This document shows positions 44,142 through 62,648 of a stretch of DNA of 64,000 bases, in pieces; positions within the stretch are counted from its first letter, which is position 1; each line of letters starts with the position of its first letter. The notes beneath the pieces were generated by a model. It saw only the letters and a list, made by a program, of their open reading frames with translations, made no database searches and was not told the origin of the DNA. Both the position numbers and the translations under genes were made by a program. Source of the stretch: a virus (lineage: Duplodnaviria; Caudoviricetes); IMG/VR virus record IMGVR_UViG_3300049846_001081; one strand, written 5' to 3'.

Positions 44142-44170
44142 AGAGGGAGTTTATATCTCCCTCTTTTTTT
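44142..44170 (+). terminator. Rho-independent terminator overlapped by a CTAAATA late promoter (44136-44142)
   Basis: AGAGGGAG-TTTATAT-CTCCCTCT followed by six T. Confidence 0.75.
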
Positions 44171-48506: not shown

Positions 48507-48557
48507 TTATTAAAGCTTTATAAACTGTATTAAATAGTGTTAGAATAGGATATTACT

Positions 48558-49124: not shown

Positions 49125-49144
49125 TCATTATCTGAATAATACAT

Positions 49145-49462: not shown

Positions 49463-49491
49463 TAAAATAAATATCTAAAAAATATTAATTA

Positions 49492-50960: not shown

Positions 50961-51016
50961 TCCAATTTAAAAACCGTCCATTTACCCTTGACTTTCGCGG
51001 TCAGGGGTTTTATAGT
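50961..51016 (+). promoter_or_regulatory. Early promoter with upstream dyad and overlapping hairpin
   Basis: TCCAATT-TAAA-AACCGTC (50961-50978); TTGACT (50988-50993)-N17-TATAGT (51011-51016). Confidence 0.75.
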
Positions 51017-51039
51017 ATGTGTATTGAAACGCCTTCACA

Positions 51040-51462
51040 ATGACTTACAACGCAGAAGTTCAATTCAAGTTTGATGCCACCTGGACTCCCAGTTATAATT
51101 CTTCGTTTTCTGATGACGACTTTATTCCTGAAGAGCACTATTTGATTACTGCTCCTGCTGCTGACTTGAACGCAAAGCAGTATTTCAAACTGTTTGAGAA
51201 GTTTATGCTTTGTGTTGGTATGTGTCCCGCAAGTATTCGTAGTGGTGCAATGTCATTGGTCTTTAATGATTTTGTGACTGAAGAAGAACAACGTAAGGTT
51301 TGTAAAGAATACGAACTGACGATGGATGAAGACCTTGAAGATAAGTTCAAGGAGTGGAAAGTGCGGGATGAAGAGATTGCCCGTTTGATGAAAGCACCTA
51401 AAGGTCCAATGGGAACTGTGTTGAGTGAAGAGGAACTGACGAACCTGGAAGAAGGGCAATGA
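51040..51462 (+). CDS. Hypothetical protein
   Basis: ORF track; first gene after the early promoter. Confidence 0.7.
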   Translation: MTYNAEVQFKFDATWTPSYNSSFSDDDFIPEEHYLITAPAADLNAKQYFKLFEKFMLCVGMCPASIRSGAMSLVFNDFVTEEEQRKVCKEYELTMDEDLEDKFKEWKVRDEEIARLMKAPKGPMGTVLSEEELTNLEEGQ

Positions 51463-51749
51463 AACTGATTTCATTCAAACATCGTGAGGATTATGGACAC
51501 GAGTGGTATGTTCAAGTTCTTCATACCAAACGATGGGCACTTCTTCAGACATCAGTTTCTTGGAATGATTATGCTGGTTGGCCTTACATCCAAATCAAAT
51601 CTGGAACTGGAACTCTTTTGAGTATTATGTTCTGGGTGTATAGGTTTGGATTTGATATTGGTGTCTGTGAGCACACTTGGAACTTTGAGTATCTGAAAGA
51701 CCTTGATGAAGACTTTGCCAAAGATTTGGATAAATGGAGTGAAGAATGA
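51459..51749 (+). CDS. Hypothetical protein
   Basis: ORF track; ATGA overlap. Confidence 0.65.
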   Translation: MKLISFKHREDYGHEWYVQVLHTKRWALLQTSVSWNDYAGWPYIQIKSGTGTLLSIMFWVYRFGFDIGVCEHTWNFEYLKDLDEDFAKDLDKWSEE

Positions 51750-52006
51750 GGTTCCGTAACATAGAGTTCCGTTGGAGTAAATGCAACAACAAGTATGAAC
51801 TCGTCAAGTGGAATCAACGCAATGGTTCCGTAGAAGAGACTTGTTATGTGATTGCTTTCTTTGATAAAGGTTCAGAGTGTTATGATATGAGAACCATAGG
51901 TGATAGGTTCTTTGAGGATAAAGATGCTTGGGTTGTTGGTAAGTATGGTCTGGAGTTTTTAAATGAAGTCTTTGAGATTGAAAGGATTGAAGAGGAACTG
52001 AAATGA
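51746..52006 (+). CDS. Hypothetical protein
   Basis: ORF track; ATGA overlap. Confidence 0.65.
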   Translation: MRFRNIEFRWSKCNNKYELVKWNQRNGSVEETCYVIAFFDKGSECYDMRTIGDRFFEDKDAWVVGKYGLEFLNEVFEIERIEEELK

Positions 52007-52209
52007 CTGAACGAGCACAAAGAGTAAAAGAAGCATTTTGGGGAAACACAGAATATCCAGATGACCTTGATGAATGCAACCTTGCTAATGCTCTCCGTGA
52101 GGTTGTTATTGAAGTGATACTTAAGTATATGCAGTATGCTGAATGGGAAATAGTCAATAAAATTATGGAAGATATTAACGAACTTGCTGATGAATTGGAG
52201 GCACTATGA
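52003..52209 (+). CDS. Hypothetical protein
   Basis: ORF track; GAGG RBS, ATGA overlap. Confidence 0.6.
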   Translation: MTERAQRVKEAFWGNTEYPDDLDECNLANALREVVIEVILKYMQYAEWEIVNKIMEDINELADELEAL

Positions 52210-52433
52210 AAAACTTTGATGGAATTGATTGGGCAGTTTTGTTTGTATTTTTTATTGCAATCGTTGCTGGTGCTATCATCAGCTATGATGCCCAACAACA
52301 ACGAGTATTATTCCAACAAACATACAATAAAAACTTGGAGTGTCGTCAAGCACTCAAAGACCAAACAGTAGTAAGAGTGAATGAGATTTGTGGAACTGTT
52401 CCACAAATCAAAGATTTTACAGGAGGAAACTGA
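52206..52433 (+). CDS. Hypothetical membrane-anchored protein
   Basis: N-terminal TM segment WAVLFVFFIAIVAGAII. Confidence 0.6.
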   Translation: MKNFDGIDWAVLFVFFIAIVAGAIISYDAQQQRVLFQQTYNKNLECRQALKDQTVVRVNEICGTVPQIKDFTGGN

Positions 52434-52434
52434 A

Positions 52435-52635
52435 ATGACTAATTATAATGATGATTTCTTTGGAATTATTGTTCTATTTGTTCTTATTGCGTCTTTTATG
52501 GGTATGTTGGTATTTGCTCACGGAGAAGGATATAAAAGGGGAGTGGATGAAACTCTTGTTTTGTGTATGGAAAACGCAAAGGATTGTAAAATCAAGTATG
52601 ATTATTTGAAGTTGGAGGAGCAGAAGGGATTATGA
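52435..52635 (+). CDS. Hypothetical membrane-anchored protein
   Basis: GGAGG RBS before ATG 52435; one TM segment. Confidence 0.6.
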   Translation: MTNYNDDFFGIIVLFVLIASFMGMLVFAHGEGYKRGVDETLVLCMENAKDCKIKYDYLKLEEQKGL

Positions 52636-52802
52636 TATTAAAAATCCTCAAGTTCTTATTCTCAAAAGAAATTGAAGTTGCTCCTGGTGTTTTTTGGTTA
52701 GGTGGAGTATTATATGAGAACCGCAATAAACCAACAACACCACCACCACTCAAATGGAAAACTGCCGAATTGGTAAATGTAGAGGAGATTGAAAATGATT
52801 GA
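52632..52802 (+). CDS. Mini-gene (56 aa)
   Basis: Manual translation MILKILKFLFSK...TAELVNVEEIEND*. Confidence 0.5.
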   Translation: MILKILKFLFSKEIEVAPGVFWLGGVLYENRNKPTTPPPLKWKTAELVNVEEIEND

Positions 52803-52968
52803 ACTTCGTATCGTTGAGAATGAACTGGGAATGAAACCAGATATTCAGTATCGTCATCATATGCTTAGAGTTGATGCAAATGGAGCATTATGCCCACCTC
52901 CATATGAGTATGTGTGGAGTGAATGGAGAACTGCCGAATATGTGAAGGCAGAGGAGATTGAAAAGTGA
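52795..52968 (+). CDS. Mini-gene (57 aa)
   Basis: Manual translation MIELRIVENELG...TAEYVKAEEIEK*; GAGGAG RBS. Confidence 0.6.
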   Translation: MIELRIVENELGMKPDIQYRHHMLRVDANGALCPPPYEYVWSEWRTAEYVKAEEIEK

Positions 52969-53111
52969 GTATTCTTGAAGATTTTAGAACTTGGTTGTGG
53001 ATTATGAAAAATAACTATAACCCACATATGAGTGAATATTTTTTCAATCGTGTTGGTTCTAACCTTCCAGAACAAACATTTATAAAAGCAGAGGAGATTG
53101 AAAATGATTGA
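52965..53111 (+). CDS. Mini-gene (48 aa, GTG start)
   Basis: Manual translation ending FIKAEEIEND*; GAGGAG RBS. Confidence 0.5.
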   Translation: MSILEDFRTWLWIMKNNYNPHMSEYFFNRVGSNLPEQTFIKAEEIEND

Positions 53112-53259
53112 AATTCAAAAGAACTACAAACTCACACTCACAGAGCAACAAGCAAAAGAACTCTACTGGATTTTGAAAGATGTAAATTTGGATGTTGATA
53201 ATGAGTTGAAACTTGTTTATCACGAACTCAAAAAACTCTTTGATAGTGGTATCCGATGA
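53104..53259 (+). CDS. Mini-gene (51 aa)
   Basis: Manual translation MIEIQKNYKLTLTEQQAKELY...DSGIR*; GAGGAG RBS. Confidence 0.6.
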   Translation: MIEIQKNYKLTLTEQQAKELYWILKDVNLDVDNELKLVYHELKKLFDSGIR

Positions 53260-53417
53260 AAACTTTTATTGCTTATCTACTTAAATTGCCACTTTATTTT
53301 GTGTCTTTATATGGTATCGCAGCACTCACAGGATTTTCAATTTGGTGGTGTATTCCAATCTGCACCGTGATTGGTTTGTCTTATGAAATTGGTGAGATGG
53401 TGAGGAAAAGGCAATGA
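53256..53417 (+). CDS. Small membrane protein (53 aa)
   Basis: Manual translation MKTFIAYLLKLPLYFVSLYGIAALTGFSIWWCIP...; ATGA overlaps at both ends. Confidence 0.55.
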   Translation: MKTFIAYLLKLPLYFVSLYGIAALTGFSIWWCIPICTVIGLSYEIGEMVRKRQ

Positions 53418-53632
53418 AAAAGTATCGTATCAAAAAAGAAACTTATAATGATACTACAAAGTATTATCCACAAGAGAAATTTTTGTATTCTTGGTATAAT
53501 ATCTTTGCCTATGAGGTTTATTTTGATGGTGGATACGATACTCTAGAAGAAGCACGGAAACAACTTTGTGAGTATTGTAGAGAACCTGTGGTAGAATACC
53601 TTGACTTTGACCCTACGAGGGATTGTAAATGA
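53414..53632 (+). CDS. Hypothetical protein
   Basis: ORF track; coupled. Confidence 0.6.
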   Translation: MKKYRIKKETYNDTTKYYPQEKFLYSWYNIFAYEVYFDGGYDTLEEARKQLCEYCREPVVEYLDFDPTRDCK

Positions 53633-53919
53633 ACGAAACACTCAATAAGAACCTCACACTCATTCAAGAGGTTGCTAACAAAGCCCTGGAACTTCATAAG
53701 AATTCAACAGAACGATTTGGTGGTGTAAATTATGCTGACCTACGAGTGGTGGATGTATGGGTGAAGTATAGTATTCACGAAGAGGATTTGGAGTATGGTG
53801 TGCTGATTGAAGAATGCTCACCAACTGCTTATGATTTACAGGATTATATGGTAGAATACCTGAAAGAAAACCTTCCTGATTATTTGAAGGATTTAGTAGA
53901 TGTGGTGACTGCTTGGTAA
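53629..53919 (+). CDS. Hypothetical protein
   Basis: ORF track; coupled. Confidence 0.6.
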   Translation: MNETLNKNLTLIQEVANKALELHKNSTERFGGVNYADLRVVDVWVKYSIHEEDLEYGVLIEECSPTAYDLQDYMVEYLKENLPDYLKDLVDVVTAW

Positions 53920-53921
53920 TT

Positions 53922-54128
53922 ATGACTGAAAGAAAACCTATACAAATCTCTGGTGATATGGTATTGTGTTCTGATAATACCTTATGGAAACTTGATGGTG
54001 GTTGGTGGGAAAAACTTGCTCCCATTCCTACTGATGAAGAATATGAAGCACAACAAGATGCACGATTGGAATGGAATAACAAATATATGGAAGCACTATA
54101 CGAACGAGGTAGTTTGGGTAAAAAATGA
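53922..54128 (+). CDS. Hypothetical protein
   Basis: ORF track 53913-54128; ATG at 53922 preferred. Confidence 0.55.
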   Translation: MTERKPIQISGDMVLCSDNTLWKLDGGWWEKLAPIPTDEEYEAQQDARLEWNNKYMEALYERGSLGKK

Positions 54129-54505
54129 CTGAATTTCAACCAAAACCACAACATCCAGAAGAAGTTGCTGATGGACTTCGTAATGCTTTTATACAAGCAA
54201 AGGAAGATGGAGTGTTTGATGAACCAGAGCATTATGATGAAGTAGAGTGGGATGAGAATGACAATACACCAAACCTCCAAAAGATTATTGATAAAATGGT
54301 AGAGGAACGTAAAGCACAAAAACTCTATAATATCCTGAAAGATAGATGGTGTTTTTCCGAAGATGCTTGTGAAGAAATTGTAGAGGCAGTTGCTGAATGG
54401 TTGCCGAAAGAACAAAATGCTTCTGGTTCTCAAAATGTGAATACTGAATTACTTGTTGATGGTTTCAACAACTGTCTTGAAAAAATTAAAGGGATGCTAC
54501 GATGA
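54125..54505 (+). CDS. Hypothetical protein
   Basis: ORF track; coupled. Confidence 0.65.
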   Translation: MTEFQPKPQHPEEVADGLRNAFIQAKEDGVFDEPEHYDEVEWDENDNTPNLQKIIDKMVEERKAQKLYNILKDRWCFSEDACEEIVEAVAEWLPKEQNASGSQNVNTELLVDGFNNCLEKIKGMLR

Positions 54506-55107
54506 CCGAACATAATCTCCCAGTTCCTGATGATTTGCCTTATCTAAATCTATCTCAAAGTGAATTGGATGAATTGAGAAAATCAAAGAAAGAATTAACG
54601 GAATACGGCAAACAGAGGTTGAGAGAACTTATCTACAAACAGGATATGCACAAAATGGAAGATGCTGCAAAAGACCTTGTTCTTGAAAATCTTACGCACG
54701 AAGAAATGTTGGAAATTGCTGAAAAAAGAGAGGCAGAGAACAAGGCACTTGATGCTCTGGATAAACTTTATGAGAAGCACGGTGATGCTATGCTGAAACT
54801 TGCTGAGATCGAAAAAGAAGAATGGGAACGCAAAGAACGCAGTGATACTGTCCTTCGACGATATAATCACTTCTACAACGAAGAATGTTCTGGGTTGCCT
54901 CACGGAACACCAATTACTCCGGAACATATGCAGGCAATCACACTAGAATGTGCTGTTGATGCTCTTATGTGCGAAAATCTGAATGTAGAGTATAATGTGA
55001 TTGCGATTGATGACATCAAAGATTTGATTGCACGATTGTATCAACAGAGTAATGAGTTCCTGAAACGAGTACAAGAGTTCAAAGATAGTGCTGATGGAGT
55101 AGCATAA
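54502..55107 (+). CDS. Hypothetical helical protein (201 aa)
   Basis: ORF track; charged coiled-coil character. Confidence 0.7.
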   Translation: MTEHNLPVPDDLPYLNLSQSELDELRKSKKELTEYGKQRLRELIYKQDMHKMEDAAKDLVLENLTHEEMLEIAEKREAENKALDALDKLYEKHGDAMLKLAEIEKEEWERKERSDTVLRRYNHFYNEECSGLPHGTPITPEHMQAITLECAVDALMCENLNVEYNVIAIDDIKDLIARLYQQSNEFLKRVQEFKDSADGVA

Positions 55108-55295
55108 TGAACATTACATTTAAACAGCATATTCTATTGTTAGCAGGGCTTACATTGTTGTGTGATGAAGCTGCAAAAGTGAATAATACAGAAATGCAAC
55201 ACGAAATCTTGAAACTATCTGATATTATTCAAGAATATGCTGAAAGGAAGCAAAGAGCAGATGAACGACGGGAGAAGAAAAATGAAACTCTGTAA
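55107..55295 (+). CDS. Hypothetical protein
   Basis: ORF track; TAATG coupling. Confidence 0.55.
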   Translation: MNITFKQHILLLAGLTLLCDEAAKVNNTEMQHEILKLSDIIQEYAERKQRADERREKKNETL

Positions 55296-55497
55296 GGATT
55301 GTAAGTATTATCGTAAGGATTGGTTCTCTCATCTTATGGGGATGGGACACCGACACGATACTTGCACTTCTCCTAATACTTCCACAAATCTTATAACTGG
55401 TAATGAGAACAGATTTTGTGATATGTTGAGAGCAGAACGATGGGAAAAACTTGATTATTCTTGTGGACCTGATGGTAAGTTCTGGGAGGCAAAATGA
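55282..55497 (+). CDS. Cys-rich small protein
   Basis: CKDCKYY...C...C...SCGPDGKFWE; ATG at 55282. Confidence 0.6.
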   Translation: MKLCKDCKYYRKDWFSHLMGMGHRHDTCTSPNTSTNLITGNENRFCDMLRAERWEKLDYSCGPDGKFWEAK

Positions 55498-55688
55498 CTA
55501 AACTAGTAAGGTGGGAAGAAAACCCAGACGAAATCGTGCTGGAAGAGGTGGAGATGTTTCACCTGGAAAGTATGAACGAACGGAGTTTGTGGGTGGGTAT
55601 TTACACACAAGACAAAAAGATTTACCACTTGAATATTCACGCAGATGGTGATAAACTAAATTATTATTGGAGCGATGAAACGCCGTGA
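55494..55688 (+). CDS. Hypothetical protein
   Basis: ORF track; GGAGG RBS. Confidence 0.6.
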   Translation: MTKLVRWEENPDEIVLEEVEMFHLESMNERSLWVGIYTQDKKIYHLNIHADGDKLNYYWSDETP

Positions 55689-56041
55689 GATTTGAAAACC
55701 CAACAAAATGGGAACTCTTCCTTGATGGTTTCCGTAATGTCTTGTATATTCTTGACTGTTATGATGATGGTGATGAATGGGGATATGATGAGTTCTGGGA
55801 GAGTTTGAGTATTGGTTGGTTTCAAGAGTATATCTATCCTTATGATGATGGATACGTTCCAACTATCAGTCCAGAACGTAGGTTGAGATTAGGACAAGAA
55901 CCAGAAAGGATTATTGTATCTGCAGAAGCATATGATGAACTTGTGCGACGAATCAATGAACCACCAGATCCTGCTGTGGTAGAACGAATTAAAGAAATTA
56001 TGAATCGTAAAGCCCCTTGGGATGATGACCGAGAAATCTAA
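55685..56041 (+). CDS. Hypothetical protein with DUF1778 (TacA/AtaR antitoxin)-like C-terminus
   Basis: C-terminal RIIVSAEAYDELVRRINEPPDP resembles the I.LS...F..F...L..PP.P motif of DUF1778 antitoxins. Confidence 0.45.
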   Translation: MRFENPTKWELFLDGFRNVLYILDCYDDGDEWGYDEFWESLSIGWFQEYIYPYDDGYVPTISPERRLRLGQEPERIIVSAEAYDELVRRINEPPDPAVVERIKEIMNRKAPWDDDREI

Positions 56042-56198
56042 GATCTTCTATAACATTTGGTGCTGTGCATATCAACGCAGGGGACTATATAGAGGAACTG
56101 ATAGGGAACATAGAGAGCACGAAACTGTGCGAATGTGTCTTGATATGAAAGATGTGAAGTTCTACCAGTTTGATACAGAGAAACCGCGATATGTCTAA
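56025..56198 (+). CDS. Small hypothetical protein (57 aa)
   Basis: Manual translation MTEKSKIFYNIWCCAYQRR...EKPRYV*. Confidence 0.5.
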   Translation: MTEKSKIFYNIWCCAYQRRGLYRGTDREHREHETVRMCLDMKDVKFYQFDTEKPRYV

Positions 56199-56568
56199 GA
56201 AACCAACAAAAACTACATTAAACTGGTGGGAATATTGGATCGGTCATTGCTGGATGATGGGGTGGCAAAATATTCGTGGATCTTTTCGTATCTGGAGAGA
56301 TCTAATGACCGGTAATTATAATGATTATGCACTGATGTGGTATGATGATCCTTATGAGGAATGTGTTAGTTGGTTCTGGGGAACTCTTGGTGATGATGAT
56401 ACTTTACCTAAAGAATTTCTTGAAGGATTGTTAGTTCAAGTAGCACAAATTGAAAGTGGTGAAGTGAAACCAGTTCCATTTACTAGAGAAATGTTTGATG
56501 AACTTGAAGACCTTGTGGGTGATATTGAAGTAAACCTTAATGAAAAGTTAGATGATGACAATCTTTGA
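56191..56568 (+). CDS. Hypothetical protein
   Basis: ORF track 56170-56568; ATG at 56191 preferred. Confidence 0.6.
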   Translation: MSKKPTKTTLNWWEYWIGHCWMMGWQNIRGSFRIWRDLMTGNYNDYALMWYDDPYEECVSWFWGTLGDDDTLPKEFLEGLLVQVAQIESGEVKPVPFTREMFDELEDLVGDIEVNLNEKLDDDNL

Positions 56569-56743
56569 TTTGGTTCAGGATGAACGTAGATATGGTTGGG
56601 TTGTAGATAAACGCTATGACTGGATCAATATGTTGATGACAATGCAGAAGAAGAAACCACAACGATTTAAAGAGTTTCAGTACACAAATGCCACAATTTA
56701 TCATTACATAGATAGAGTACAGATGGAACAAACTTATGAGTGA
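56552..56743 (+). CDS. Hypothetical protein
   Basis: ORF track. Confidence 0.55.
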   Translation: MMTIFDLVQDERRYGWVVDKRYDWINMLMTMQKKKPQRFKEFQYTNATIYHYIDRVQMEQTYE

Positions 56744-57209
56744 AGTAACGTTCAAGAAGCACAGAGTATTCCGTGAAACAGACGCAGTTGTTTTCTATGA
56801 TATATCAGTTGAGCATTCAAACGCTCAGGATCTCGTTGTTCATACTGGTCCTGCTATCAGTCCTCCTGATGATATTGTAGGAGCAAAACAATTTTATATT
56901 CATTATCACCAGGTAGATCATAATCGTGTTCTGTCTGGACTTCGCACGTTTGAACTTGTAAATCCTGAGTGGAGATACCCATATCATATCGTTCATCTTA
57001 ATCGTTCTTCTGGTGCATTAGTCATTCCTAAGATGACTTATCATCGTTCATATTCTGGTGAAGATGGATCTATCGTGATTAACCAAGCAATCCGCGATGA
57101 TGAGTTTAATCCAGAGACAGAGTTTATTCCAGTATCTGCTGCACAAAATCAAGAACTTTATCGCATTCTTGCACATGAAAAACCGGTGATTCATACGCTT
57201 GGAGAATAA
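56736..57209 (+). CDS. Cupin-like hypothetical protein (157 aa)
   Basis: HYHQVDHNRVLSG..FELV...LVIPKMTYHRS pattern fits a His-liganded cupin beta-barrel. Confidence 0.5.
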   Translation: MSEVTFKKHRVFRETDAVVFYDISVEHSNAQDLVVHTGPAISPPDDIVGAKQFYIHYHQVDHNRVLSGLRTFELVNPEWRYPYHIVHLNRSSGALVIPKMTYHRSYSGEDGSIVINQAIRDDEFNPETEFIPVSAAQNQELYRILAHEKPVIHTLGE

Positions 57210-57211
57210 CT

Positions 57212-57607
57212 ATGGGTATGTTTGATTATGTGCGTTCTTCATATAATCTGGGAGAACAATTCACAAATGTAGAGTGTCAGACAAAAGATATTGAAGAGGG
57301 ATATAGTGGAACAATGTCTCACTTCTGGATAGATCCTGCTGGTTATTTGTGGTGTGGTGATTATAAAGGAACATCAACATTTGAAACTATTGAAAAGGAC
57401 GATCCACGCTATAGTTCCAAACATCTATTCCTAAACTATGAGTGGGTTCCTACGGGTCAACGTGGAAGGTATCACGTTCATCCGATTACAAAATATGTTG
57501 AAATATATCCAGCACAATGGGATGGATTGTGGGAAGATTGGCCTCGCTGTAGATTGCACTTTAAACATGGTAAGTTAATGGATTTTGAGGATGTTACTGG
57601 GCGATGA
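57212..57607 (+). CDS. Conserved-type phage hypothetical protein (MGMFD family)
   Basis: MGMFDYV..QTKDI N-terminal pattern. Confidence 0.6.
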   Translation: MGMFDYVRSSYNLGEQFTNVECQTKDIEEGYSGTMSHFWIDPAGYLWCGDYKGTSTFETIEKDDPRYSSKHLFLNYEWVPTGQRGRYHVHPITKYVEIYPAQWDGLWEDWPRCRLHFKHGKLMDFEDVTGR

Positions 57608-57732
57608 GTGATAAAGTAAAAGTAGTCACTATGCTGAGTGTCCTAGTGGCACTTGACCTGTGTATCATTGGTGGGATATTATGGAAGGGTCACGCAAATT
57701 TCCCTGAACTCATCAAGCATCTACATCAATGA
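57604..57732 (+). CDS. Small membrane peptide (42 aa)
   Basis: Manual translation with one TM segment; ATGA overlaps. Confidence 0.45.
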   Translation: MSDKVKVVTMLSVLVALDLCIIGGILWKGHANFPELIKHLHQ

Positions 57733-58190
57733 AGGAATTTGACTATGCCCTGGACTACAAGGTTCTGGACTTCACACTTCCAGAGAATCGCAAACTTTAT
57801 CGCATTGCACGAGGGGAGCAAGGCGTATTATTGGTGCGCCCTTATACTGACGACATTTGCGCTCATTGGAGATTTGTAGATGTGGTTACTGCTCGTAAAT
57901 CTTCTGCTAAGATATACGAAATGTATCAAGATTATAAACGACAGAAGGATTTCATTGGAATGGATATGGCACGGAAATTCCTTGAGATGGGATTCACTCG
58001 CGCCAGACGGTACGCGAATCATAGTAGTGGACGGAAATATGATAAGACTGGAAAGGTACGTCCTCAAGAAATAGATTGGAAAACAAATGAAAAAGCACAA
58101 GCAGCACAAATCTTCAAAGAGGTGAGAGATAAAGTTGCTTATGATCCAGAGTATCAACAAATGCGTAAAGCATGGAGAGCATCAGAGTGA
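57729..58190 (+). CDS. DUF4385 family protein
   Basis: YRIARGEQGVLLVRPY, HWRF, DFIGMDMARKFLEMGFTRARRYANH. Confidence 0.8.
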   Translation: MKEFDYALDYKVLDFTLPENRKLYRIARGEQGVLLVRPYTDDICAHWRFVDVVTARKSSAKIYEMYQDYKRQKDFIGMDMARKFLEMGFTRARRYANHSSGRKYDKTGKVRPQEIDWKTNEKAQAAQIFKEVRDKVAYDPEYQQMRKAWRASE

Positions 58191-58504
58191 TTAGTACAGA
58201 ACTATTCCCATACGAAACCTTCCCCATTCGTCTTGAGTTTGGTGAGAAGAAGAACACTACAGTGTCTTATTTTCAGTGTCAGGAACACCTTGACAAATAC
58301 CTAGAAAGGTATAAACTGGATAAGAGAACTATTAAACTTGATTATCGTGATGGAGAACCCTCTAAACCCAGTCAAAAACGTAAGAGAAGTGTGGAACAAA
58401 AACCTGAACCAAAAAGTAAAGGAAGTGTTGGTACAGGTAAAAAACGAACCACCCGCTTGGATTCCACTAGAAACACTACTAGCACTACAAAGCGTAAAAA
58501 ATGA
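58187..58504 (+). CDS. Hypothetical protein with basic C-terminal tail
   Basis: ORF track 58172-58504; GTG at 58187 overlaps the upstream stop. Confidence 0.6.
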   Translation: MISTELFPYETFPIRLEFGEKKNTTVSYFQCQEHLDKYLERYKLDKRTIKLDYRDGEPSKPSQKRKRSVEQKPEPKSKGSVGTGKKRTTRLDSTRNTTSTTKRKK

Positions 58505-58662
58505 CTGAAGAAACAAAACTTATTCTGGGACTGATGCAGATTGATAATCTGACTTCGCTTCTGGAAGGCAACGAATATGAAAAGTTTTTGTGTAGTCATC
58601 TCATTTCAATTCAAGTAGAACTCAATAGGCAATTAAGTCATTATGGAAAAACAATTGATTGA
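58501..58662 (+). CDS. Small hypothetical protein (53 aa)
   Basis: Manual translation MTEETKLILGLMQIDNL...GKTID*. Confidence 0.55.
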   Translation: MTEETKLILGLMQIDNLTSLLEGNEYEKFLCSHLISIQVELNRQLSHYGKTID

Positions 58663-58855
58663 TGATGCTTTCTATGTGGAGCAAAAGAAATGGGGAACAT
58701 GGGACTCTTACGATAAAGAAGGAAAGTGTATCGTAACGTCACTGACTGAAGAGGAATGTGTAAGGGCAACCAGATTTCTTCTCAAGGGAAGACAAGAGGG
58801 ATTTGATGAAACTGCTCATATAAAATATGATGGAGTAGTTGGTGGAAAATTATGA
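58643..58855 (+). CDS. Hypothetical protein
   Basis: ORF track; ends in YDGVVGGKL. Confidence 0.6.
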   Translation: MEKQLIDDAFYVEQKKWGTWDSYDKEGKCIVTSLTEEECVRATRFLLKGRQEGFDETAHIKYDGVVGGKL

Positions 58856-59256
58856 CTCAAAGTGTTTACAAGACAGAACTTTATCGTAACCCCAAAATAC
58901 AAATTAAAAGATCACCAGTTCAAGGTTGGGGAATGTTTGCAAATGAACCTCTCAAAAAGTATGAACTTTTAGAGGAATCTCCAATTATTATTATTGGGCA
59001 AGAAGAACTTGCAAATCCACATAATCTTGGTAGATATTTTGCCACTATTAAAGACGGGAGAGTTTTCATAAGTTTGGGTTCTGGTGTTTTGTATAATCAT
59101 TCTCTCACACCTAATGTTGAATGGTATATTGATGGAGTTAATCTGACTCAGAACTATTACACATTAAGAGACATTGAAGTTGGCGAAGAACTTTTTTCAT
59201 GCTATAATCCAAATATAACTTTTGAAGAACAAAATGGCAATCAGATCGTTCACTGA
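58852..59256 (+). CDS. SET-domain protein (putative lysine methyltransferase)
   Basis: SPVQGWGMFA, LYNHSLTPNV and LRDIEVGEELFSCY match the SET GxG, NHSxxPN and ELxxxY motifs. Confidence 0.85.
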   Translation: MTQSVYKTELYRNPKIQIKRSPVQGWGMFANEPLKKYELLEESPIIIIGQEELANPHNLGRYFATIKDGRVFISLGSGVLYNHSLTPNVEWYIDGVNLTQNYYTLRDIEVGEELFSCYNPNITFEEQNGNQIVH

Positions 59257-59688
59257 TAAAAATGGTAACGTTTGGGAATGGAAAGAAACTCCCGAAGTTC
59301 TAGAAGCACTTAAAAACTTTCACGCAGGAGATTATCAAGGTCCTCTTTATGCTCCACATCCTGATTTGAATAATGAAAATAAGACTAACACCTAATCAAC
59401 AGATGTGGGCTAATATCTTTCGTTGTGCTGTAGAACGTTCTAATCTTTACTTCGCAGATAAAGATCTAGATAGACACGCAAGAGAGCACACTACAGTTGT
59501 ATTAGCACTTCAAAAAGGAGAACAGTTTTGGAAGGAACTCCTGTAGAACAACCCTATCACGTTCTTGATCCTACGACTCCTTGGTATGAATGGATGTCAT
59601 ATCTTGAGTGTTGTCAGAGTTTGAACATAAAACCTAGCATGAATAGATTTCTTGCCTATAATAGATACTATAAATCCGTTATAGAGGA

Positions 59689-59910
59689 ATGAATTTTTTA
59701 CGCTGGTTGTTTTCTCCCACCGACAAAGAAATGTGTGAAGAGACTAATATCTACTCCATCCTTCTTGATCTACAAGAAAGAGTAGAAGTATTAGAGGCAG
59801 AGAACATTGAAACCACAAATACTCTTTATGAACTTATGAATTCTATTGATGCAGTTGATGCACGTATAGATATTCTGACTTTAGAAAAGTGGAAAGAGAA
59901 AGATGTATAA
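59689..59910 (+). CDS. Hypothetical coiled-coil protein
   Basis: ORF track; AGAGG RBS. Confidence 0.65.
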   Translation: MNFLRWLFSPTDKEMCEETNIYSILLDLQERVEVLEAENIETTNTLYELMNSIDAVDARIDILTLEKWKEKDV

Positions 59911-59916
59911 TAAATA
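59910..59916 (+). promoter_or_regulatory. Late promoter 1 of nuclease cassette
   Basis: ATAAATA. Confidence 0.6.
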
Positions 59917-59918
59917 GA

Positions 59919-59978
59919 TTGTCTGTTGGTACTGCAATTCTCTACAGACAAGATTAGGTGCTCCTGTGAGCACCTTTT
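59919..59978 (+). ncRNA. Candidate ~60-nt small RNA (hairpin plus terminator)
   Basis: Stem TTGTCTGT (59919-59926)/ACAGACAA (59944-59951) with a 17-nt loop, then a terminator; bases 59922-59936 are complementary to 60005-60019. Expression is not shown. Confidence 0.4.
59956..59978 (+). terminator. Rho-independent terminator
   Basis: AGGTGCTC-CTGT-GAGCACCT followed by TTT. Confidence 0.7.
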
Positions 59979-59993
59979 CTACTATGAACTTTA

Positions 59994-60000
59994 ATAAATA
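59994..60000 (+). promoter_or_regulatory. Late promoter 2 of nuclease cassette
   Basis: ATAAATA 25 nt upstream of the ATG at 60026. Confidence 0.7.
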
Positions 60001-60025
60001 ATAATGCAGTACCAATAGAATAGAA

Positions 60026-60772
60026 ATGACTAAAAAAAGTCCAAGAATATACACGTATAAAATTACTTTTGAAGAAGTTCCATATTATTACTATGGAGTA
60101 AAAAAAGAAAAATATTTTAATCAAAAATATTTTGGTTCTCCTATAACACATAAATGGTGCTGGAAATTTTATACGCCAAAGAAACAGATATTAGAAGTGT
60201 TTGATTATACTGATGAAGGATATTGTAAAGCATTTGAAGTTGAAAAAAGACTAATTAAACCAGTTCTAAATGATAAGTGGTGCCTAAATGAAAATGTTGG
60301 TGGAGTTATATCTTTATCTTCTTTAAGAAAAGTAGGTGAAAATCATTTCAAAAATGGTACAGGTTGTTTTTGTCTATCTAAAGAAGAAAGAACAGAACTG
60401 AGTAAAGAAATTGTTGAAAAGAATAGAAAAAATAAAATCGGATTATTTGGTATGAACAAGAAACAAGTACTTGATGCTGCCAAACTAGGAGGACAGAAAA
60501 GTTTTGAAATGAAAACAGGAGTTTTTTCATTAACGAAAGAAGAAAGAAAGGAATTAAATCAAAAACTTAAAGAAGAAAAAAGAGGAATTTATGGAATAAG
60601 TAAAGAAAGAAGAGAAGAAATTGGTAGAGTGTCTGGAAAAAAATCTGCAAAGATAATAAATTCTCAAAAGTGGGAATGTTCTGAAACTGGTTATATATCA
60701 ACGCCTGCAGGTCTTACGCATTATCAAAAATCAAGAGGTATAGATACTTCCAAAAGAAATAGGATTAAGTAA
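60026..60772 (+). mobile_element. Free-standing GIY-YIG-like (Seg-type) homing endonuclease gene
   Basis: IYTYKIT..YYYYG, YFGS, AFEVEKRLI and LNENVGG in the N-terminus; four KxG(I/V/L/C)(F/Y)xxxKxxR-like repeats; A-rich; flanked by an ATGTAT direct repeat. Confidence 0.7.
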
Positions 60773-60955
60773 ATGTATGAAAATCAAAGTAATTTTGAAA
60801 AAGCACTCTTGCTATTTTGCAATAGAGTTGATATAATATGTGCTATGGAGATGTCTAACAAAATTGATGCTGACTCTGCTTACAAAAATATTAAGGCTGA
60901 ACTTAAAGAACTCAAACGAATCCGCAAACAACTCAAAAAAGACGCGGATTTGTGA
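60773..60955 (+). CDS. Hypothetical protein
   Basis: ORF track. Confidence 0.6.
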   Translation: MYENQSNFEKALLLFCNRVDIICAMEMSNKIDADSAYKNIKAELKELKRIRKQLKKDADL

Positions 60956-61070
60956 TAAATGTGGTGTTGTAAAACCTCTTGACAAAGATCACTATCAAGT
61001 GGTAAAGTATTTTCGTGATGGTTTCTCTTACTATTGCCACGACTGTTCTAAACCTAAACCCAGAGATTGA
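60867..61070 (+). CDS. Zn-ribbon-like small protein
   Basis: CDKC...YYCHDC; start codon uncertain. Confidence 0.55.
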   Translation: MLTLLTKILRLNLKNSNESANNSKKTRICDKCGVVKPLDKDHYQVVKYFRDGFSYYCHDCSKPKPRD

Positions 61071-61072
61071 TT

Positions 61073-61501
61073 ATGGACTATAAAAAGTATTCACTTGAAA
61101 ATCTTGAAAACTGGATGCATGATGCACTTTCTTGTAGTGAAGCATCGTCGCAAGAGATTTATGATGTGATTAAAAATGTCGTGAGTGAAAACTACTACAT
61201 TTACAAAGATCATACTGAAAGGTGTTATGAACTTCTTGCACTACTGAATGGTAATGGTAAAAAAGTACAACTTGATTTTGATGTTGAGGCAATTAGAGAA
61301 GCAGGTGGATATGAATGGACTCCAGCATTATCAAACGATAAAGTTGTAAAGTGGCAACTTCCTGTTGAGGTTGATGGTGCAAGTGGGGAATACTTTGTTC
61401 AGTTTCCTGATGATCTCTTAAAGGCAACAAATCTAAAGGAAGGAGATCAAGTTCAGTGGATAAATCAAGGTGATGGTTCTTATCTATTGCGTAAAGTATA
61501 A
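61073..61501 (+). CDS. Protein with C-terminal AbrB/MazE-like DNA-binding domain
   Basis: GEYFVQFPDDLLKATNLKEGDQVQWINQGDGSYLLRKV. Confidence 0.7.
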   Translation: MDYKKYSLENLENWMHDALSCSEASSQEIYDVIKNVVSENYYIYKDHTERCYELLALLNGNGKKVQLDFDVEAIREAGGYEWTPALSNDKVVKWQLPVEVDGASGEYFVQFPDDLLKATNLKEGDQVQWINQGDGSYLLRKV

Positions 61502-61695
61502 TGGAAACCCTCCAATTTCTTGCTCCCATTCTTGGTGGTCTTTGTATCAATAATTTTATGGAAAAACAAGGAGATTTTTGTAATTTTAGACAAGAACCAC
61601 CATCTGTGGTAAAATACTATGAACCTGGAAAGTCCTGTTATGTAAATGGGACATTTTACACTAAATGTGAGGATAGATTAAATGGCATTAAGTAA
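61501..61695 (+). CDS. Hypothetical protein
   Basis: ORF track. Confidence 0.55.
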   Translation: METLQFLAPILGGLCINNFMEKQGDFCNFRQEPPSVVKYYEPGKSCYVNGTFYTKCEDRLNGIK

Positions 61696-61909
61696 GCAAA
61701 CACTAGATCACCTTTTGGAGGCAGAATCACATCTTCGTGCTGCAATCAAGTCCGCTGCCATAAATGAAAAACCATTAGTAGTTAAGCAATTATCACAACT
61801 TCTTCTTGATGTGGAACAATGTAAGAAGTTTGAGGAGATTATGGATATTCTGGAGAACAGAAAACCAGGTAGTCGTGGTAGTTTTGGTTCATTCTTTGAT
61901 GAAGATTAA
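61682..61909 (+). CDS. Hypothetical protein
   Basis: ORF track. Confidence 0.65.
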   Translation: MALSKQTLDHLLEAESHLRAAIKSAAINEKPLVVKQLSQLLLDVEQCKKFEEIMDILENRKPGSRGSFGSFFDED

Positions 61910-61998
61910 GAACTGTAAAGCAATCCCGAAGAGATTATTAAATGTCTAGATAGTTTATGTTGATATGCTAATATATCTGGGTACTCGGGAGCAAAACA

Positions 61999-62163
61999 AT
62001 GACACTTTCATCAGATAACAAAAAAAATCTATCAGACTCTGAGTGGAATGAAATGAACGCTCTTCGTAAAGCAATCAATGATCGTCCACAAGCAGTTCAT
62101 CCAGATAAAATGGAAGAGTTCACTGCTTACCTTGTGCGAAGTTTGCGAGAAATGGGCAATTAA
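61999..62163 (+). CDS. Small hypothetical protein (54 aa)
   Basis: Manual translation MTLSSDNKKNLSDSEWNEMNALRKAINDRPQAVHPDKMEEF...; GGGAG RBS. Confidence 0.6.
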   Translation: MTLSSDNKKNLSDSEWNEMNALRKAINDRPQAVHPDKMEEFTAYLVRSLREMGN

Positions 62164-62210
62164 ATAAGTGTCATAGGGTGCTGGACAAGCACCCTTTTTT
62201 GATATATACT
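62155..62210 (+). promoter_or_regulatory. Early promoter with upstream dyad and overlapping terminator hairpin
   Basis: GGCAATT-AAAT-AAGTGTC (62155-62172); TGGACA (62182-62187)-N17-TATACT (62205-62210); hairpin AGGGTGCT/AGCACCCT plus T run. Confidence 0.65.
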
Positions 62211-62231
62211 GTTTTGAGAATAACAAATCTA

Positions 62232-62648
62232 ATGAATCTTAAAGCAGTTTTAATTGCTAGTCTAATTACATTACCTTTTCCTGCATTTGCTCAACAAACT
62301 AACATCTATTCTGTTTGTACTAATTACCAAGAAAACTATACTCCTGGGTATTATGATCAATATGGTAATTATATTCAAGGAAATGTAAATACACAACGTT
62401 ATAATGTTCAGTGTGGAACTGGTACATACTATCGTCCTAATGGTGGGGCAGTATATCAATCTCCAGTCACTGCACCTGTAGCGCAACCTGGATATGGTAG
62501 AGGTTACTGTTCTCCAGCAAGAACCACTCTTGGTGGTTTGCTTGGTGGAGGGATTGCTGCGTCAGTTTCTAAAAAGAATGCTTGGAGTTGGGCTATTCCT
62601 CTTGGTGCAGTATTGGGAACTGGTGTAGCAAATGCCACATGCTATTAA
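62232..62648 (+). CDS. Exported protein with glycine-zipper C-terminus
   Basis: Signal peptide ending PAFA; TTLGGLLGGGIAA...IPLGAVLGTGVA. Confidence 0.65.
   Translation: MNLKAVLIASLITLPFPAFAQQTNIYSVCTNYQENYTPGYYDQYGNYIQGNVNTQRYNVQCGTGTYYRPNGGAVYQSPVTAPVAQPGYGRGYCSPARTTLGGLLGGGIAASVSKKNAWSWAIPLGAVLGTGVANATCY

What the first reader, a model, noticed from the sequence alone, without database searches (positions are those of the whole stretch)
59909..60772. Nuclease cassette carrying its own small RNA complementary to the nuclease leader
Seen, in order: late promoter (59910), hairpin with a 17-nt loop, terminator (59956-59978), second late promoter (59994), 25-nt leader, then the GIY-YIG-like ORF. 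Bases 59922-59936 (TCTGTTGGTACTGCA) pair with 60005-60019 (TGCAGTACCAATAGA): 14 Watson-Crick pairs plus one G-U, ending 6 nt before the ATG. Both segments lie at the expected +1 of their promoters. Established: T4 homing-endonuclease genes are silenced by a cis hairpin over the RBS that late promoters bypass. Unlike that case, the antisense arm here has its own promoter, is displayed largely in a hairpin loop and is cut off by a terminator. Inference: a co-mobile, trans-acting antisense RNA that throttles a toxic nuclease (type I toxin-antitoxin-like control of a selfish element). A nuclease-associated RNA cofactor is a less likely alternative.
Basis: partly seen in the sequence, partly recalled or inferred. 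Interest (0 to 1): 0.8.

Follow-up and report, generated by a model that had tools for sequence, protein, structure and literature searches.

The report
Portable antisense leader of phage nucleases
A selfish nuclease gene in this freshwater T4-like cyanophage travels with a ~110-base control module whose upstream RNA arm pairs with the gene's own leader. This extends a known phage T4 trick, and the module probably also releases a small antisense RNA, which has not been shown.

Summary
Bases 59922-59936 pair with 60005-60019 (14 Watson-Crick pairs plus one G-U).

One copy alone is not beyond chance. Comparison settles it: more than 100 distinct copies of the module occur in freshwater T4-like cyanophage contigs, in unrelated flanks. 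They stand in front of at least four homing-endonuclease families.

- The two arms are the most variable part of the module, yet stay paired.
- Mismatches are G-U 55 times and A-C once, so selection acts on + strand RNA.
- The local hairpin and the terminator also covary.
- The upstream TAAATA box is present in 102 of 104 copies, none of which was collected by means of that box. It looks like the phage's real late promoters.
- Empty sites in close relatives show that the box is the first inserted DNA.

The cis part, a stem over the leader with a late promoter between the arms, is the known T4/Aeh1 mask. Dassa et al. 2009 noted it for cyanophage-like nucleases. The extra promoter, hairpin and terminator point to a discrete ~59-nt antisense RNA. 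Neither that RNA nor any action in trans is shown.

This scan has reported the same module in at least seven other genomes. Verdict: a new variant of a known kind.

The parts
59903..59908 (+). Left copy of the 6-bp target duplication ATGTAT. T59908 plus the first two inserted A's form the upstream gene's new TAA stop.
   Evidence: Empty sites in L147-L151 (upstream protein 96% identical) read ...ATGTATGAA..., with the upstream stop overlapping the downstream start.
59909..59916 (+). P1, a late-promoter box (AATAAATA). These are the first inserted bases of the cassette.
   Evidence: TAAATA is present at this place in 102 of 104 modules that were collected without using it. In the window, NATAAATA or NCTAAATA occurs 23 times on the + strand and never on the - strand, mostly 20-60 nt before ORF starts. 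P1 is identical to P2.
59921..59949 (+). Hairpin S1: stem 59921-59926 with 59944-59949, 17-nt loop. Its 5' strand and the 5' half of its loop make up arm 1.
   Evidence: RNAfold of the predicted small RNAs gives this hairpin in essentially every allele. All 6 stem pairs show changes on both sides; covariation score 0.309 against 0.177 shuffled for S1 plus terminator.
59922..59936 (+). Arm 1, complementary to the mRNA leader.
   Evidence: Non-Watson-Crick positions across the modules are G-U 55 times and A-C once.
59956..59980 (+). Intrinsic terminator: a 7-8 bp G+C-rich stem, a 4-nt loop and a U tract.
   Evidence: Terminator scan. 96% of cells paired, 5 of 7 pairs with changes on both sides, U tract invariant.
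59921..59980 (+). Predicted small RNA of about 59 nt, from P1 +1 to the terminator U tract. The RNA itself is an inference and has not been observed.
   Evidence: Architecture. Predicted fold -23.9 kcal/mol, with loop bases 59930-59939 unpaired.
59993..60000 (+). P2, a late-promoter box lying between the two arms.
   Evidence: TATAAATA in 102 of 104 modules; box invariant in alignment A1.
60005..60019 (+). Arm 2, at the 5' end of the predicted P2 mRNA. It ends 6 nt before the ATG.
   Evidence: Predicted small RNA-mRNA dimer ddG -14.9 kcal/mol, against -1.4 +/- 2.0 with arm 2 shuffled.
60026..60772 (+). Homing-endonuclease gene, 248 aa: a divergent GIY-YIG catalytic domain (about residues 1-95), helical repeats that look like NUMOD3 repeats (my reading; Pfam finds no NUMOD3 in this ORF), and a small C-terminal DNA-binding-like domain.
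   Evidence: No Pfam hit; phrog_314 homing endonuclease, E = 0.0026. AF2 model of residues 1-100: pLDDT 86, beta-beta-alpha-beta-alpha. VIA Z = 7.0, rmsd 2.6-2.7 A over 80 residues to the I-TevI catalytic domain, followed by PD-T4-3 and the UvrC GIY-YIG domain. The nearest clusters in the ESM Atlas are SegE/GIY-YIG.
60773..60778 (+). Right copy of the ATGTAT duplication. It restores the start of the downstream DUF7219 gene.

Best explanation
The stretch 59909-60772 is a mobile homing-endonuclease cassette. It brings its own ~110-base, two-promoter RNA control module.

Shown from sequence and comparison:
- Arm 1 and arm 2 pair as + strand RNA.
- A late-promoter box (P2) lies between the arms, so P2 transcripts start at arm 2 and lack arm 1.
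- An intrinsic terminator lies between arm 1 and P2.
- A second late-promoter box (P1) lies 5-6 nt before a conserved hairpin that displays arm 1.

Inferred mechanism:
1. Any RNA that enters from upstream and reads through the terminator closes the long stem over the Shine-Dalgarno-less leader and is not translated. This is the T4-type cis mask.
2. P1, and also upstream transcripts that stop at the terminator, yield a discrete arm-1 RNA. From P1 it would be about 59 nt: a 5' hairpin plus the terminator hairpin.
3. The open loop of that RNA seeds pairing with the first ~15 nt of the late P2 mRNA. This leaves about 6 free nt before the AUG, blocks 30S entry and throttles synthesis of the nuclease late in infection.

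The hypervariable but matched arms make each RNA specific for its own cassette.
For: 1. Module copies. The module occurs in 46 loci found by nuclease homology and 97 found by a terminator-P2 pattern. That gives 104 distinct copies with an arm duplex of -14 kcal/mol or better and 54 arm alleles, in unrelated flanks.
2. Covariation of the arms. 92% of cells are paired; the score is 0.472 against 0.166 shuffled. RNAalifold finds the same stem on its own, with 17 of 22 pairs compensatory.
3. Strand. G-U 55 against A-C 1 marks selection on + strand RNA.
4. P1. TAAATA is present in 102 of 104 copies that were not collected by it, and the spacing to the hairpin is fixed. In the window the box occurs 23 times on + and 0 times on -. 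In S-SRM01, ATAAATA occurs 90 times on + and 7 on -, and CTAAATA 21 and 7. Most stand before ORFs. NATAAATA is the published late promoter of cyanomyoviruses (PMC2984593).
5. Hairpin S1 covaries separately from arm 2, which a pure cis mask does not need.
6. The arm cores are the most variable region (1.48 and 1.49 bits). They vary more than the unpaired linkers (0.9-1.05 bits), yet stay 96% paired.
7. Cognate duplexes are -23.4 +/- 1.8 kcal/mol, non-cognate -10.4 +/- 4.5. In S-SRM01 each predicted RNA's best target among 125 late leaders is its own leader.
8. Predicted intermolecular ddG is -14.9 kcal/mol.
9. Empty sites place P1 inside the insert.
Against: - No RNA data show a discrete small RNA, its ends or its amount.
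- The only RNA-library material, metatranscriptome contigs of relatives, runs across P2 from upstream. That fits read-through or carried-over DNA and gives no start or end.
- Everything except P1 and S1 is explained by the known cis mask.
- A quarter of P1 boxes are CTAAATA, whereas P2 is almost always the full TATAAATA, so P1 may be weak.
- One box in the window (44135) is followed directly by a terminator with no evident product, so a box is not proof of a useful transcript.
- Co-resident cassettes always differ in their arms, but with 54 alleles that is expected by chance.
- The direction of the effect, repression, is inferred only from the position of the duplex.
Confidence: 0.5

Rival explanations
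1. Cis mask only. The arms silence only transcripts that read through from upstream, exactly as for T4 I-TevI, segB and Aeh1 mobE. The terminator merely lowers read-through and helps bring the arms together. The P1 box and hairpin S1 serve other ends, such as a stop codon and a 3'-end structure for the interrupted upstream gene, or they are carried along by frequent recombination of the module. No small RNA has a function.
For: - The architecture of arm, late promoter, arm and start codon is the published mask. It was already seen in 15 of 16 cyanophage-like endonuclease leaders.
- The full-length MFE structure is the long stem, and so is the alignment consensus.
- RNA-library contigs of relatives do cross the terminator and P2.
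- P1 is less close to the full consensus than P2.
- The TAA triplets inside the box do end the upstream ORF here and in several other loci.
Against: - It leaves unexplained why TAAATA is kept in 102 of 104 copies at a fixed 5-6 nt from the hairpin.
- It leaves unexplained why S1 covaries although it competes with the mask.
- It leaves unexplained why the paired arm cores vary more than the unpaired linkers.
- These phages purge the box from non-promoter positions, so a retained box upstream of a terminator is expected to fire.
Confidence: 0.33
2. The small RNA exists but acts positively or on something else. Pairing with the 5' end of the late mRNA could protect the A/U-rich leader from host RNase E and stabilise the message. 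Alternatively the RNA has other targets.
For: The duplex lies at the very 5' end of the mRNA. RNA duplexes that protect transcripts from RNase E during cyanophage infection have been reported (my own knowledge: Stazic et al. 2011, not checked here). The leader alone is weakly structured.
Against: The duplex leaves only about 6 nt before the AUG of a leader without a Shine-Dalgarno sequence, a position that normally blocks initiation (inference). In S-SRM01 no other late leader is a strong target.
Confidence: 0.07
3. The RNA is a cofactor or guide of the nuclease.
For: A variable loop in a conserved scaffold next to a nuclease gene looks superficially like a guide RNA.
Against: The same arm alleles occur with unrelated nuclease families: 13 of 55 alleles are found with two or more ORF families. 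The only strong complement of the loop is the cassette's own leader. GIY-YIG and HNH homing endonucleases recognise DNA through protein domains (established knowledge).
Confidence: 0.03
4. A DNA-level inverted repeat: an invertible promoter segment, a protein operator or a recombination site flanking P2.
For: A 15-bp inverted repeat flanks a promoter-bearing 68-bp segment. One natural recombinant (L136) has a crossover inside the conserved core.
Against: Mismatches are G-U 55 times and A-C once, which is meaningless for DNA symmetry. All 97 pattern matches have the same orientation relative to the arms and the ORF. The cassette carries no recombinase.
Confidence: 0.02

Closest known systems
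T4-type translational masks with a nested late promoter (I-TevI, I-TevII, I-TevIII, segB; mobE of Aeromonas phage Aeh1; also T4 genes e, soc, 49). Review: PMC2988022.
   Same: A stem sequesters the translation-initiation region of a homing-endonuclease gene. A late promoter inside the structure gives transcripts that lack the 5' arm. Expression is limited to late in infection.
   Different: Here an intrinsic terminator lies inside the loop. A second late-promoter box precedes the 5' arm, and the 5' arm sits in its own covarying hairpin. The leader has no Shine-Dalgarno sequence. The module is a portable unit shared by several nuclease families.
Hairpins in the 5' UTRs of free-standing endonucleases in cyanophage-like 'fractured gene' loci (Dassa et al. 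2009, PMC2677866).
   Same: [quoted passage not shown] They were read as a translational hairpin.
   Different: That paper does not mention a terminator (the word does not occur in it), and the passages read describe no upstream promoter, local hairpin, small RNA or arm hypervariability.
c4 antisense RNA of phages P1 and P7 (immI), and the CI RNA of phage P4. My own knowledge: Citron and Schuster 1990; not read here.
   Same: A small antisense RNA is encoded upstream of its target on the same strand. Complementarity comes from same-strand inverted repeats, and loop bases pair with the target's ribosome-binding region. Matched variation of the pairs creates specificity (P1/P7 heteroimmunity).
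   Different: c4 is processed from the same transcript rather than made from its own promoter and terminator. It controls an antirepressor in temperate phages, not a nuclease in a lytic T4-like phage.
Type I toxin-antitoxin pairs with an adjacent antitoxin RNA that does not overlap the toxin gene (tisB/istR-1, shoB/ohsC, zor/orz), and IS10 RNA-OUT/RNA-IN. My own knowledge.
   Same: A short structured RNA pairs with the 5' leader of a harmful or selfish gene and limits its translation. In IS10 a loop pairs with the 5' end of the mRNA.
   Different: No small toxic peptide is involved, there is no evidence of differential RNA stability or addiction, and the orientation is tandem rather than divergent or overlapping.
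CfrI antisense RNA of cyanophage S-PM2 (Millard et al. 2010; summarised in PMC2984593 and PMC12197685).
   Same: A non-coding RNA linked to a homing-endonuclease gene in a T4-like cyanophage. The C-terminal third of the window's ORF resembles S-PM2p181, the gene next to F-CphI.
   Different: CfrI is a ~225-nt true antisense transcript from the opposite strand, spanning psbA and F-CphI. It is not a same-strand terminated hairpin RNA.
PeSL mobile regulatory cassettes of T4-type phages (Arbiol et al. 2010). My own knowledge, and named in earlier notes of this scan.
   Same: Short conserved regulatory modules that recur between genes and act as crossover points for swapping modules. Here the evidence is the recombinant L136 and the arm alleles shared between nuclease families.
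   Different: PeSLs carry early promoters and stem-loops, not a late-promoter pair with a matched antisense arm.
Short RNAs made by a phage late promoter and an immediate terminator (lambda 6S RNA; StxS of Shiga-toxin phages, PMC7547250).
   Same: A late promoter followed closely by a terminator gives a small RNA with a regulatory role in trans.
   Different: That belongs to an antitermination system of lambdoid phages, and the RNA acts on host targets.

Membership tests
T4-type translational mask with nested late promoter | The 3' arm of a stem covers the translation-initiation region just upstream of the start codon. | tested here: met
   Arm 2 (60005-60019) ends 6 nt before the ATG at 60026 and covers about 15 of the ~20 leader nt. 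The leader has no Shine-Dalgarno sequence.
T4-type translational mask with nested late promoter | A late promoter between the arms, so that late transcripts lack the 5' arm. | tested here: met
   P2 box at 59993-60000; TATAAATA in 102 of 104 modules. Arm 2 begins about 4 nt after the box, that is, at the predicted +1.
T4-type translational mask with nested late promoter | The stem is conserved by compensatory change. | tested here: met
   92% of cells paired, 14 of 15 arm pairs with changes on both sides, score 0.472 against 0.166 shuffled; RNAalifold agrees.
T4-type translational mask with nested late promoter | Upstream early or middle transcripts run through both arms. | tested here: inconclusive
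   A terminator lies between the arms. Metatranscriptome contigs of relatives cross it, but contigs show no transcript ends and DNA carry-over is possible.
Antisense small RNA with its own promoter and terminator, acting on the adjacent gene (like P1/P7 c4 or a type I antitoxin) | Own promoter. | tested here: inconclusive
   The box is present in 102 of 104 copies, matches this phage's real late promoters and is purged elsewhere. Its activity was not measured.
Antisense small RNA with its own promoter and terminator, acting on the adjacent gene (like P1/P7 c4 or a type I antitoxin) | Own terminator and a stable fold that exposes the complementary bases. | tested here: met
   The terminator covaries and its U tract is invariant. 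The S1 hairpin covaries. Loop bases are predicted unpaired.
Antisense small RNA with its own promoter and terminator, acting on the adjacent gene (like P1/P7 c4 or a type I antitoxin) | A discrete RNA species is detected and regulates in trans. | not testable with these tools
   No transcriptome exists for any phage that carries the module. Only contigs of RNA libraries were available.
Type I toxin-antitoxin system | A toxin whose unchecked expression harms the carrier, an unstable antitoxin RNA and a stable toxin mRNA. | not testable with these tools
   Toxicity of the nuclease and the RNA half-lives are unknown. The resemblance is functional analogy only.
GIY-YIG homing endonuclease | GIY-YIG fold: a three-stranded sheet flanked by helices (beta-beta-alpha-beta-alpha). 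| tested here: met
   AF2 model of residues 1-100: pLDDT 86, strands 7-15, 21-28 and 51-59, helices 43-48 and 63-80. VIA Z = 7.0, rmsd 2.6-2.7 A, 80 residues aligned to I-TevI (1ln0, 1mk0). The top 7 rows are all described as GIY-YIG domains except PD-T4-3, which I take to be one (own knowledge).
GIY-YIG homing endonuclease | Conserved motif and catalytic residues: Tyr of GIY, Tyr-x-Gly, Arg, Glu, Asn. | tested here: inconclusive
   Y11, Y22, G24, E73 and N88 are invariant and R7 and Y9 nearly so in 70 relatives. E73 and N88 are 15 residues apart, as are E75 and N90 of I-TevI (own knowledge). No equivalent of Arg27 was identified. Pfam GIY-YIG models do not score, and hhalign against the canonical GIY-YIG+NUMOD3 group found nothing.
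PeSL-like mobile regulatory cassette | A conserved intergenic regulatory unit that recurs at many sites and mediates exchange of modules. | tested here: met
   104 distinct copies in unrelated flanks. The same arm allele occurs with different ORF families. The natural recombinant L136 has mismatched arms. Two different cassettes occupy the same site.

The most novel reading that the evidence does not exclude
The matched hypervariable arms are specificity determinants of small RNAs that act in trans. This would be an incompatibility or immunity-like code among competing homing-endonuclease cassettes. A resident cassette's RNA would silence an incoming cassette with the same arms. Selection would then drive the arms to diversify, as with P1/P7 c4 heteroimmunity or antisense-controlled plasmid incompatibility. 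The conserved core would serve as the crossover point at which nucleases are swapped.
Probability: 0.2. Interest if true: 0.8.

Novelty: new variant of a known kind. Interest (0 to 1): 0.6.

Why it matters
Homing endonucleases are the commonest selfish genes of large lytic phages. How they are kept harmless to their carrier is known from only a few T4 and Aeh1 cases, all of them cis hairpins.

It occurs in more than 100 copies across lake cyanophages.

If the P1-to-terminator RNA is real, it would be the first dedicated antisense small RNA that travels with a homing-endonuclease cassette in T4-like phages. The arm pairs would also be a natural set of mutually exclusive RNA-RNA pairs.

The idea can be tested directly in a cultured phage, S-SRM01, which has at least four modules with different arms.

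Tried and rejected
- Near-identity search of the phage collection found nothing. The window's phage has not been deposited.
- No whole genome is held for the window.
- No Rfam family matches the module.
- Pfam gives nothing for the ORF. A profile search of PDB sequences gives nothing.
- The whole-protein AF2 model left the N-terminal domain below pLDDT 50. It was refolded alone with a deeper alignment.
- hhalign of the window's family against the canonical GIY-YIG+NUMOD3 group found no relation.
- RNA evidence: six runs hold only 4-7% of the sampled words. Laying four of them showed contigs of relatives at 80-95% identity, at low depth and with no information on starts or ends. This is no support either way.
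- Search for a remote arm-1 partner of the mismatched recombinant L136: its contig is only 13 kb, and only its own arm 2 matched.
- Whether co-resident cassettes avoid sharing arms: none of about 22 co-resident pairs is identical, but only about 0.7 identical pairs are expected by chance. The test has no power.
- Genome-wide target scan in S-SRM01: no second strong target.
- The original mobE papers (PMC1913452, PMC2655525) are not held; the review was used instead.
- The DNA-level readings (invertible promoter, operator) were rejected on the G-U against A-C asymmetry.
Full report
**What is in the window**

The window is part of a T4-like cyanomyovirus. It holds a long block of + strand structural genes, each preceded by NATAAATA or NCTAAATA, followed by a block of small genes. 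Earlier notes of this scan describe the genome as a freshwater T4-like cyanophage.

- P1 box AATAAATA: 59909-59916.
- Hairpin S1: stem 59921-59926 with 59944-59949, 17-nt loop.
- Terminator: stem 59957-59963 with 59968-59974, then TTTTCT.
- P2 box AATAAATA: 59993-60000.
- Arm 2: 60005-60019.
- ATG: 60026.

The terminator scan and the repeat finder (15 nt, 93% complementary, 68 nt apart) agree. The single mismatch is a G-U pair. RNAfold of 59915-60040 closes the long stem around the terminator hairpin, at -38.8 kcal/mol with z = -6.0.

The '25-nt leader' is measured from the box. By the T4 rule (start at the sixth base after the box; my own knowledge) the leader is about 20 nt.

**Is it more than chance?**

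Not on this copy alone. The 64-kb window holds 46 inverted pairs of 13 nt or more within 150 nt of each other, and a few are of similar quality. The comparative data decide the matter.

- The nearest deposited relatives of the ORF are in Synechococcus phages S-SRM01 (54% identity) and B3/B23 (43%). Their upstream regions have the same layout, with different but again complementary arms.
- A scan of IMG/VR with the protein gave 46 loci. Nearly all carry the module in unrelated flanks, and conservation begins exactly at the P1 box.
- A scan with a terminator-P2 pattern gave 97 more matches, all with the full module.
- After removing duplicates there are 104 distinct modules with an arm duplex of -14 kcal/mol or better, and 54 different arm-1 strings.

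**Covariation**

The tests used a MAFFT alignment of 100 distinct modules (A1).
- Arms plus terminator: 92.1% of cells paired; covariation score 0.472, against 0.166 in shuffles (0 of 500 reach it) and at most 0.128 when the partner is slid. In the arm core, 41-49 sequences per pair have changes on both sides.
- RNAalifold, with no structure supplied, returns the same long stem and terminator. 17 of 22 pairs are compensatory.
- Local hairpin S1 plus terminator: 89.6% paired, score 0.309 against 0.177 shuffled. All six S1 pairs show changes on both sides.
- RNAfold of the predicted P1-to-terminator RNAs gives a 5' hairpin plus a terminator hairpin in essentially every allele.

So one 5' strand has two conserved, mutually exclusive partners: the 3' strand of S1 and the 3' part of arm 2.

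**RNA or DNA?**

On the best ungapped diagonal, with equal penalties for every mismatch type, the positions that are not Watson-Crick are G-U 55 times and A-C once. Neutral decay of a DNA palindrome would give both types equally. The pairing is therefore selected in + strand RNA. This removes the invertible-promoter, operator and recombination-site readings. In addition, all 97 pattern matches have the same orientation.

**Is P1 a promoter?**

- None of the collecting steps used P1, yet TAAATA lies at the expected place in 102 of 104 modules. One exception is a partly decayed copy and the other a false module.
- The octamers are NATAAATA in 78 copies and NCTAAATA in 24.
- The spacing to the hairpin is fixed: a 5-nt spacer in the alignment. 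The hairpin therefore starts at the predicted +1.
- In the window, NATAAATA occurs 17 times and NCTAAATA 6 times on the + strand, and neither occurs on the - strand. About 17-23 per strand are expected from base composition (my calculation). Most lie 20-60 nt before ORF starts, including the CTAAATA boxes at 9673, 11609 and 46789.
- In the complete S-SRM01 genome, ATAAATA occurs 90 times on + and 7 on -, and CTAAATA 21 and 7.
- NATAAATA is the published late promoter of cyanomyoviruses (PMC2984593). A T4-type late promoter needs only this box (my own knowledge).

A retained box 50-60 nt upstream of a terminator is thus expected to give a short transcript. There are two caveats. P1 is further from the full consensus than P2, which is TATAAATA in 102 of 104 copies. 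And one box in the window (44135) lies directly before a terminator with no evident product.

**Co-mobility**

Relatives whose upstream protein is 96% identical have an empty site. There the upstream stop overlaps the downstream start within ATGTATGA. The window reads ATGTAT, then the cassette from 59909 to 60772, then ATGTAT again. The P1 box is therefore the first inserted DNA, and the duplication rebuilds both flanking genes, as an earlier first-reader note proposed.

In L152 and L153 the same site holds a different cassette, with other arms and a junction 4 nt away.

**What the module serves**

The ORFs downstream of the module fall into several families:
- the window's family, 44 distinct copies;
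- a group that is HNH-like by its N-terminal sequence and carries Pfam NUMOD3 repeats, 21 copies;
- a group that is GIY-YIG-like by motif and carries NUMOD3 repeats, 16 copies;
- a fourth group, 10 copies;
- single copies with weak Pfam GIY-YIG or clear Pfam HNH matches.

Thirteen of 55 arm alleles occur with two or more ORF families. L136 is a natural recombinant: its arm 1 belongs to one allele, its arm 2 and nuclease to another, and the crossover lies in the conserved terminator-P2 core. Some copies are followed only by a decayed ORF (L082, L084).

The module is therefore a portable leader, not a partner of one protein. This argues against the RNA-cofactor idea.

**The window's protein**

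Pfam, PDB sequence profiles and hhalign do not recognise it. A search of 1.84 billion cluster representatives found 332 relatives of the N-terminal 100 residues.

With 70 of these relatives, AlphaFold gives a confident model: pLDDT 86, topology beta-beta-alpha-beta-alpha. Its best structural matches, in order, are:
- the I-TevI catalytic domain (Z = 7.0, rmsd 2.6-2.7 A, 80 residues);
- the restriction endonuclease PD-T4-3;
- the UvrC GIY-YIG domains.

Unrelated chains score Z of 4.1 or less. Nearest-cluster features in the ESM Atlas agree, pointing to SegE and GIY-YIG.

Y11, Y22, G24, E73 and N88 are invariant, and R7 and Y9 nearly so. No equivalent of the catalytic Arg was identified. I call it a divergent GIY-YIG homing endonuclease with helical repeats that look like NUMOD3 repeats. 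Its C-terminal third resembles S-PM2p181, the gene next to F-CphI.

**How it most likely works**

Shown:
- The two arms pair as RNA.
- P2 lies between them.
- A terminator separates arm 1 from P2.
- Arm 1 has a promoter-like box and a hairpin of its own.

Known: a stem over the initiation region with a late promoter inside it is the T4/Aeh1 mask for homing endonucleases (PMC2988022). Dassa et al. 2009 saw such hairpins, often holding TATAAATA, in 15 of 16 leaders of cyanophage-like free-standing endonucleases (PMC2677866). That paper never uses the word terminator, and the passages read mention no upstream promoter or small RNA.

Inferred: transcripts that stop at the terminator, whether started at P1 or further upstream, are free carriers of arm 1. 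The P1 product would be about 59 nt, with its loop bases open. It is predicted to bind the first 14-15 nt of the P2 mRNA with ddG -14.9 kcal/mol, against -1.4 +/- 2.0 for shuffled arms. About 6 nt would remain free before the AUG of a leader that has no Shine-Dalgarno sequence, which should block initiation.

Three features are unexplained by a pure cis mask and fit a discrete RNA that acts in trans:
- the conserved P1 box;
- the covarying hairpin S1;
- arm cores that are the most variable region of the module (1.48 and 1.49 bits, against 0.9-1.05 for unpaired linkers) while staying 96% paired.

Cognate duplex energies are tightly set at -23.4 +/- 1.8 kcal/mol, and non-cognate ones average -10.4. 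In S-SRM01 each of the four predicted RNAs has its own leader as best target among 125 late leaders.

**What is missing**

There is no direct RNA evidence. The metatranscriptome contigs that could be laid belong to relatives, run across P2 from upstream and carry no information on ends. No transcriptome is published for S-SRM01. The absence of shared arms among co-resident cassettes is expected by chance.

My odds:
- 0.5 for the combined cis mask plus trans small RNA;
- 0.33 for the cis mask alone;
- the rest for a positive or other role of the RNA, a nuclease cofactor, or DNA-level functions.

**Novelty**

The cis component is known. The two-promoter, terminator-containing form that predicts a co-mobile antisense RNA, and the hypervariable matched arms, are not in the papers I could read. 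Rfam has no such family.

The nearest functional analogues are the same-strand antisense RNAs c4 of P1/P7 and CI of P4, and type I antitoxin RNAs (my own knowledge).

This scan has already reported the same module in at least seven other genomes, with the same partial verdict. My tests were run independently of those notes. The G-U asymmetry, the empty site, the entropy profile, the structure of the nuclease domain and the genome-wide target scan are, as far as the short notes I saw show, additions to them.

Noticed in passing
window 44135-44170: A TCTAAATA box is followed at once by a strong terminator-like hairpin and a T run, just after the stop of ORF 42021-44120. It is a late-promoter-like box with no room for a product. 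It serves as a caution that a box alone does not prove a useful transcript.
   Followed up: no
window 31313-41345: Six tandem genes of 560-730 aa start at 31335, 33545, 35734, 37467, 39179 and about 41341. Each is preceded by almost the same late box plus an A-rich leader without a Shine-Dalgarno sequence. Several share N-terminal coding sequence, which suggests a paralogous array of late, probably structural, genes.
   Followed up: no
window 59882-59911: The insertion junction creates a perfect TATAAT hexamer (59906-59911), with a weak -35 (TAGAAA) 18 nt upstream. If the host sigma-70 polymerase uses it, this copy could make the arm-1 RNA early as well. The feature is not conserved in other loci.
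   Followed up: partly
window 60840-61070: This ORF overlaps the DUF7219 gene in another frame. It matches the zinc-binding N-terminus of endonuclease VII / HNH families (phrog_1035, E = 7e-6). Its true start probably lies downstream of the listed GTG.
   Followed up: no
L136:280-420: A natural recombinant module. Arm 1 and the upstream flank are as in L055, L080 and L106, but arm 2 and the nuclease belong to another allele, so the arms no longer pair (-8.1 kcal/mol). The crossover lies in the conserved terminator-P2 core.
   Followed up: partly
L152 and L153, about 1700-1830: The same gene junction that is occupied in the window holds a different cassette, with other arms and a junction 4 nt upstream. 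This points to repeated, independent use of one target site.
   Followed up: partly
S-SRM01 (MW015081) 48434-62500 and about 192422: This cultured phage has four modules with four different arm alleles, in front of four different nuclease-like ORFs. A probable fifth module with a different terminator lies near 192422.
   Followed up: partly
L003 (S-PM2) 2638-3267: S-PM2p181, the gene directly after the homing endonuclease F-CphI and close to the annotated antisense RNA CfrI, shares the C-terminal domain of the window's nuclease (36% identity over 85 aa).
   Followed up: no
window 59982-59989: CTATGAAC lies between the terminator and P2. It aligns with TTATAAAC in a subclass of modules and looks like a decayed duplicate of the P2 box.
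   Followed up: no
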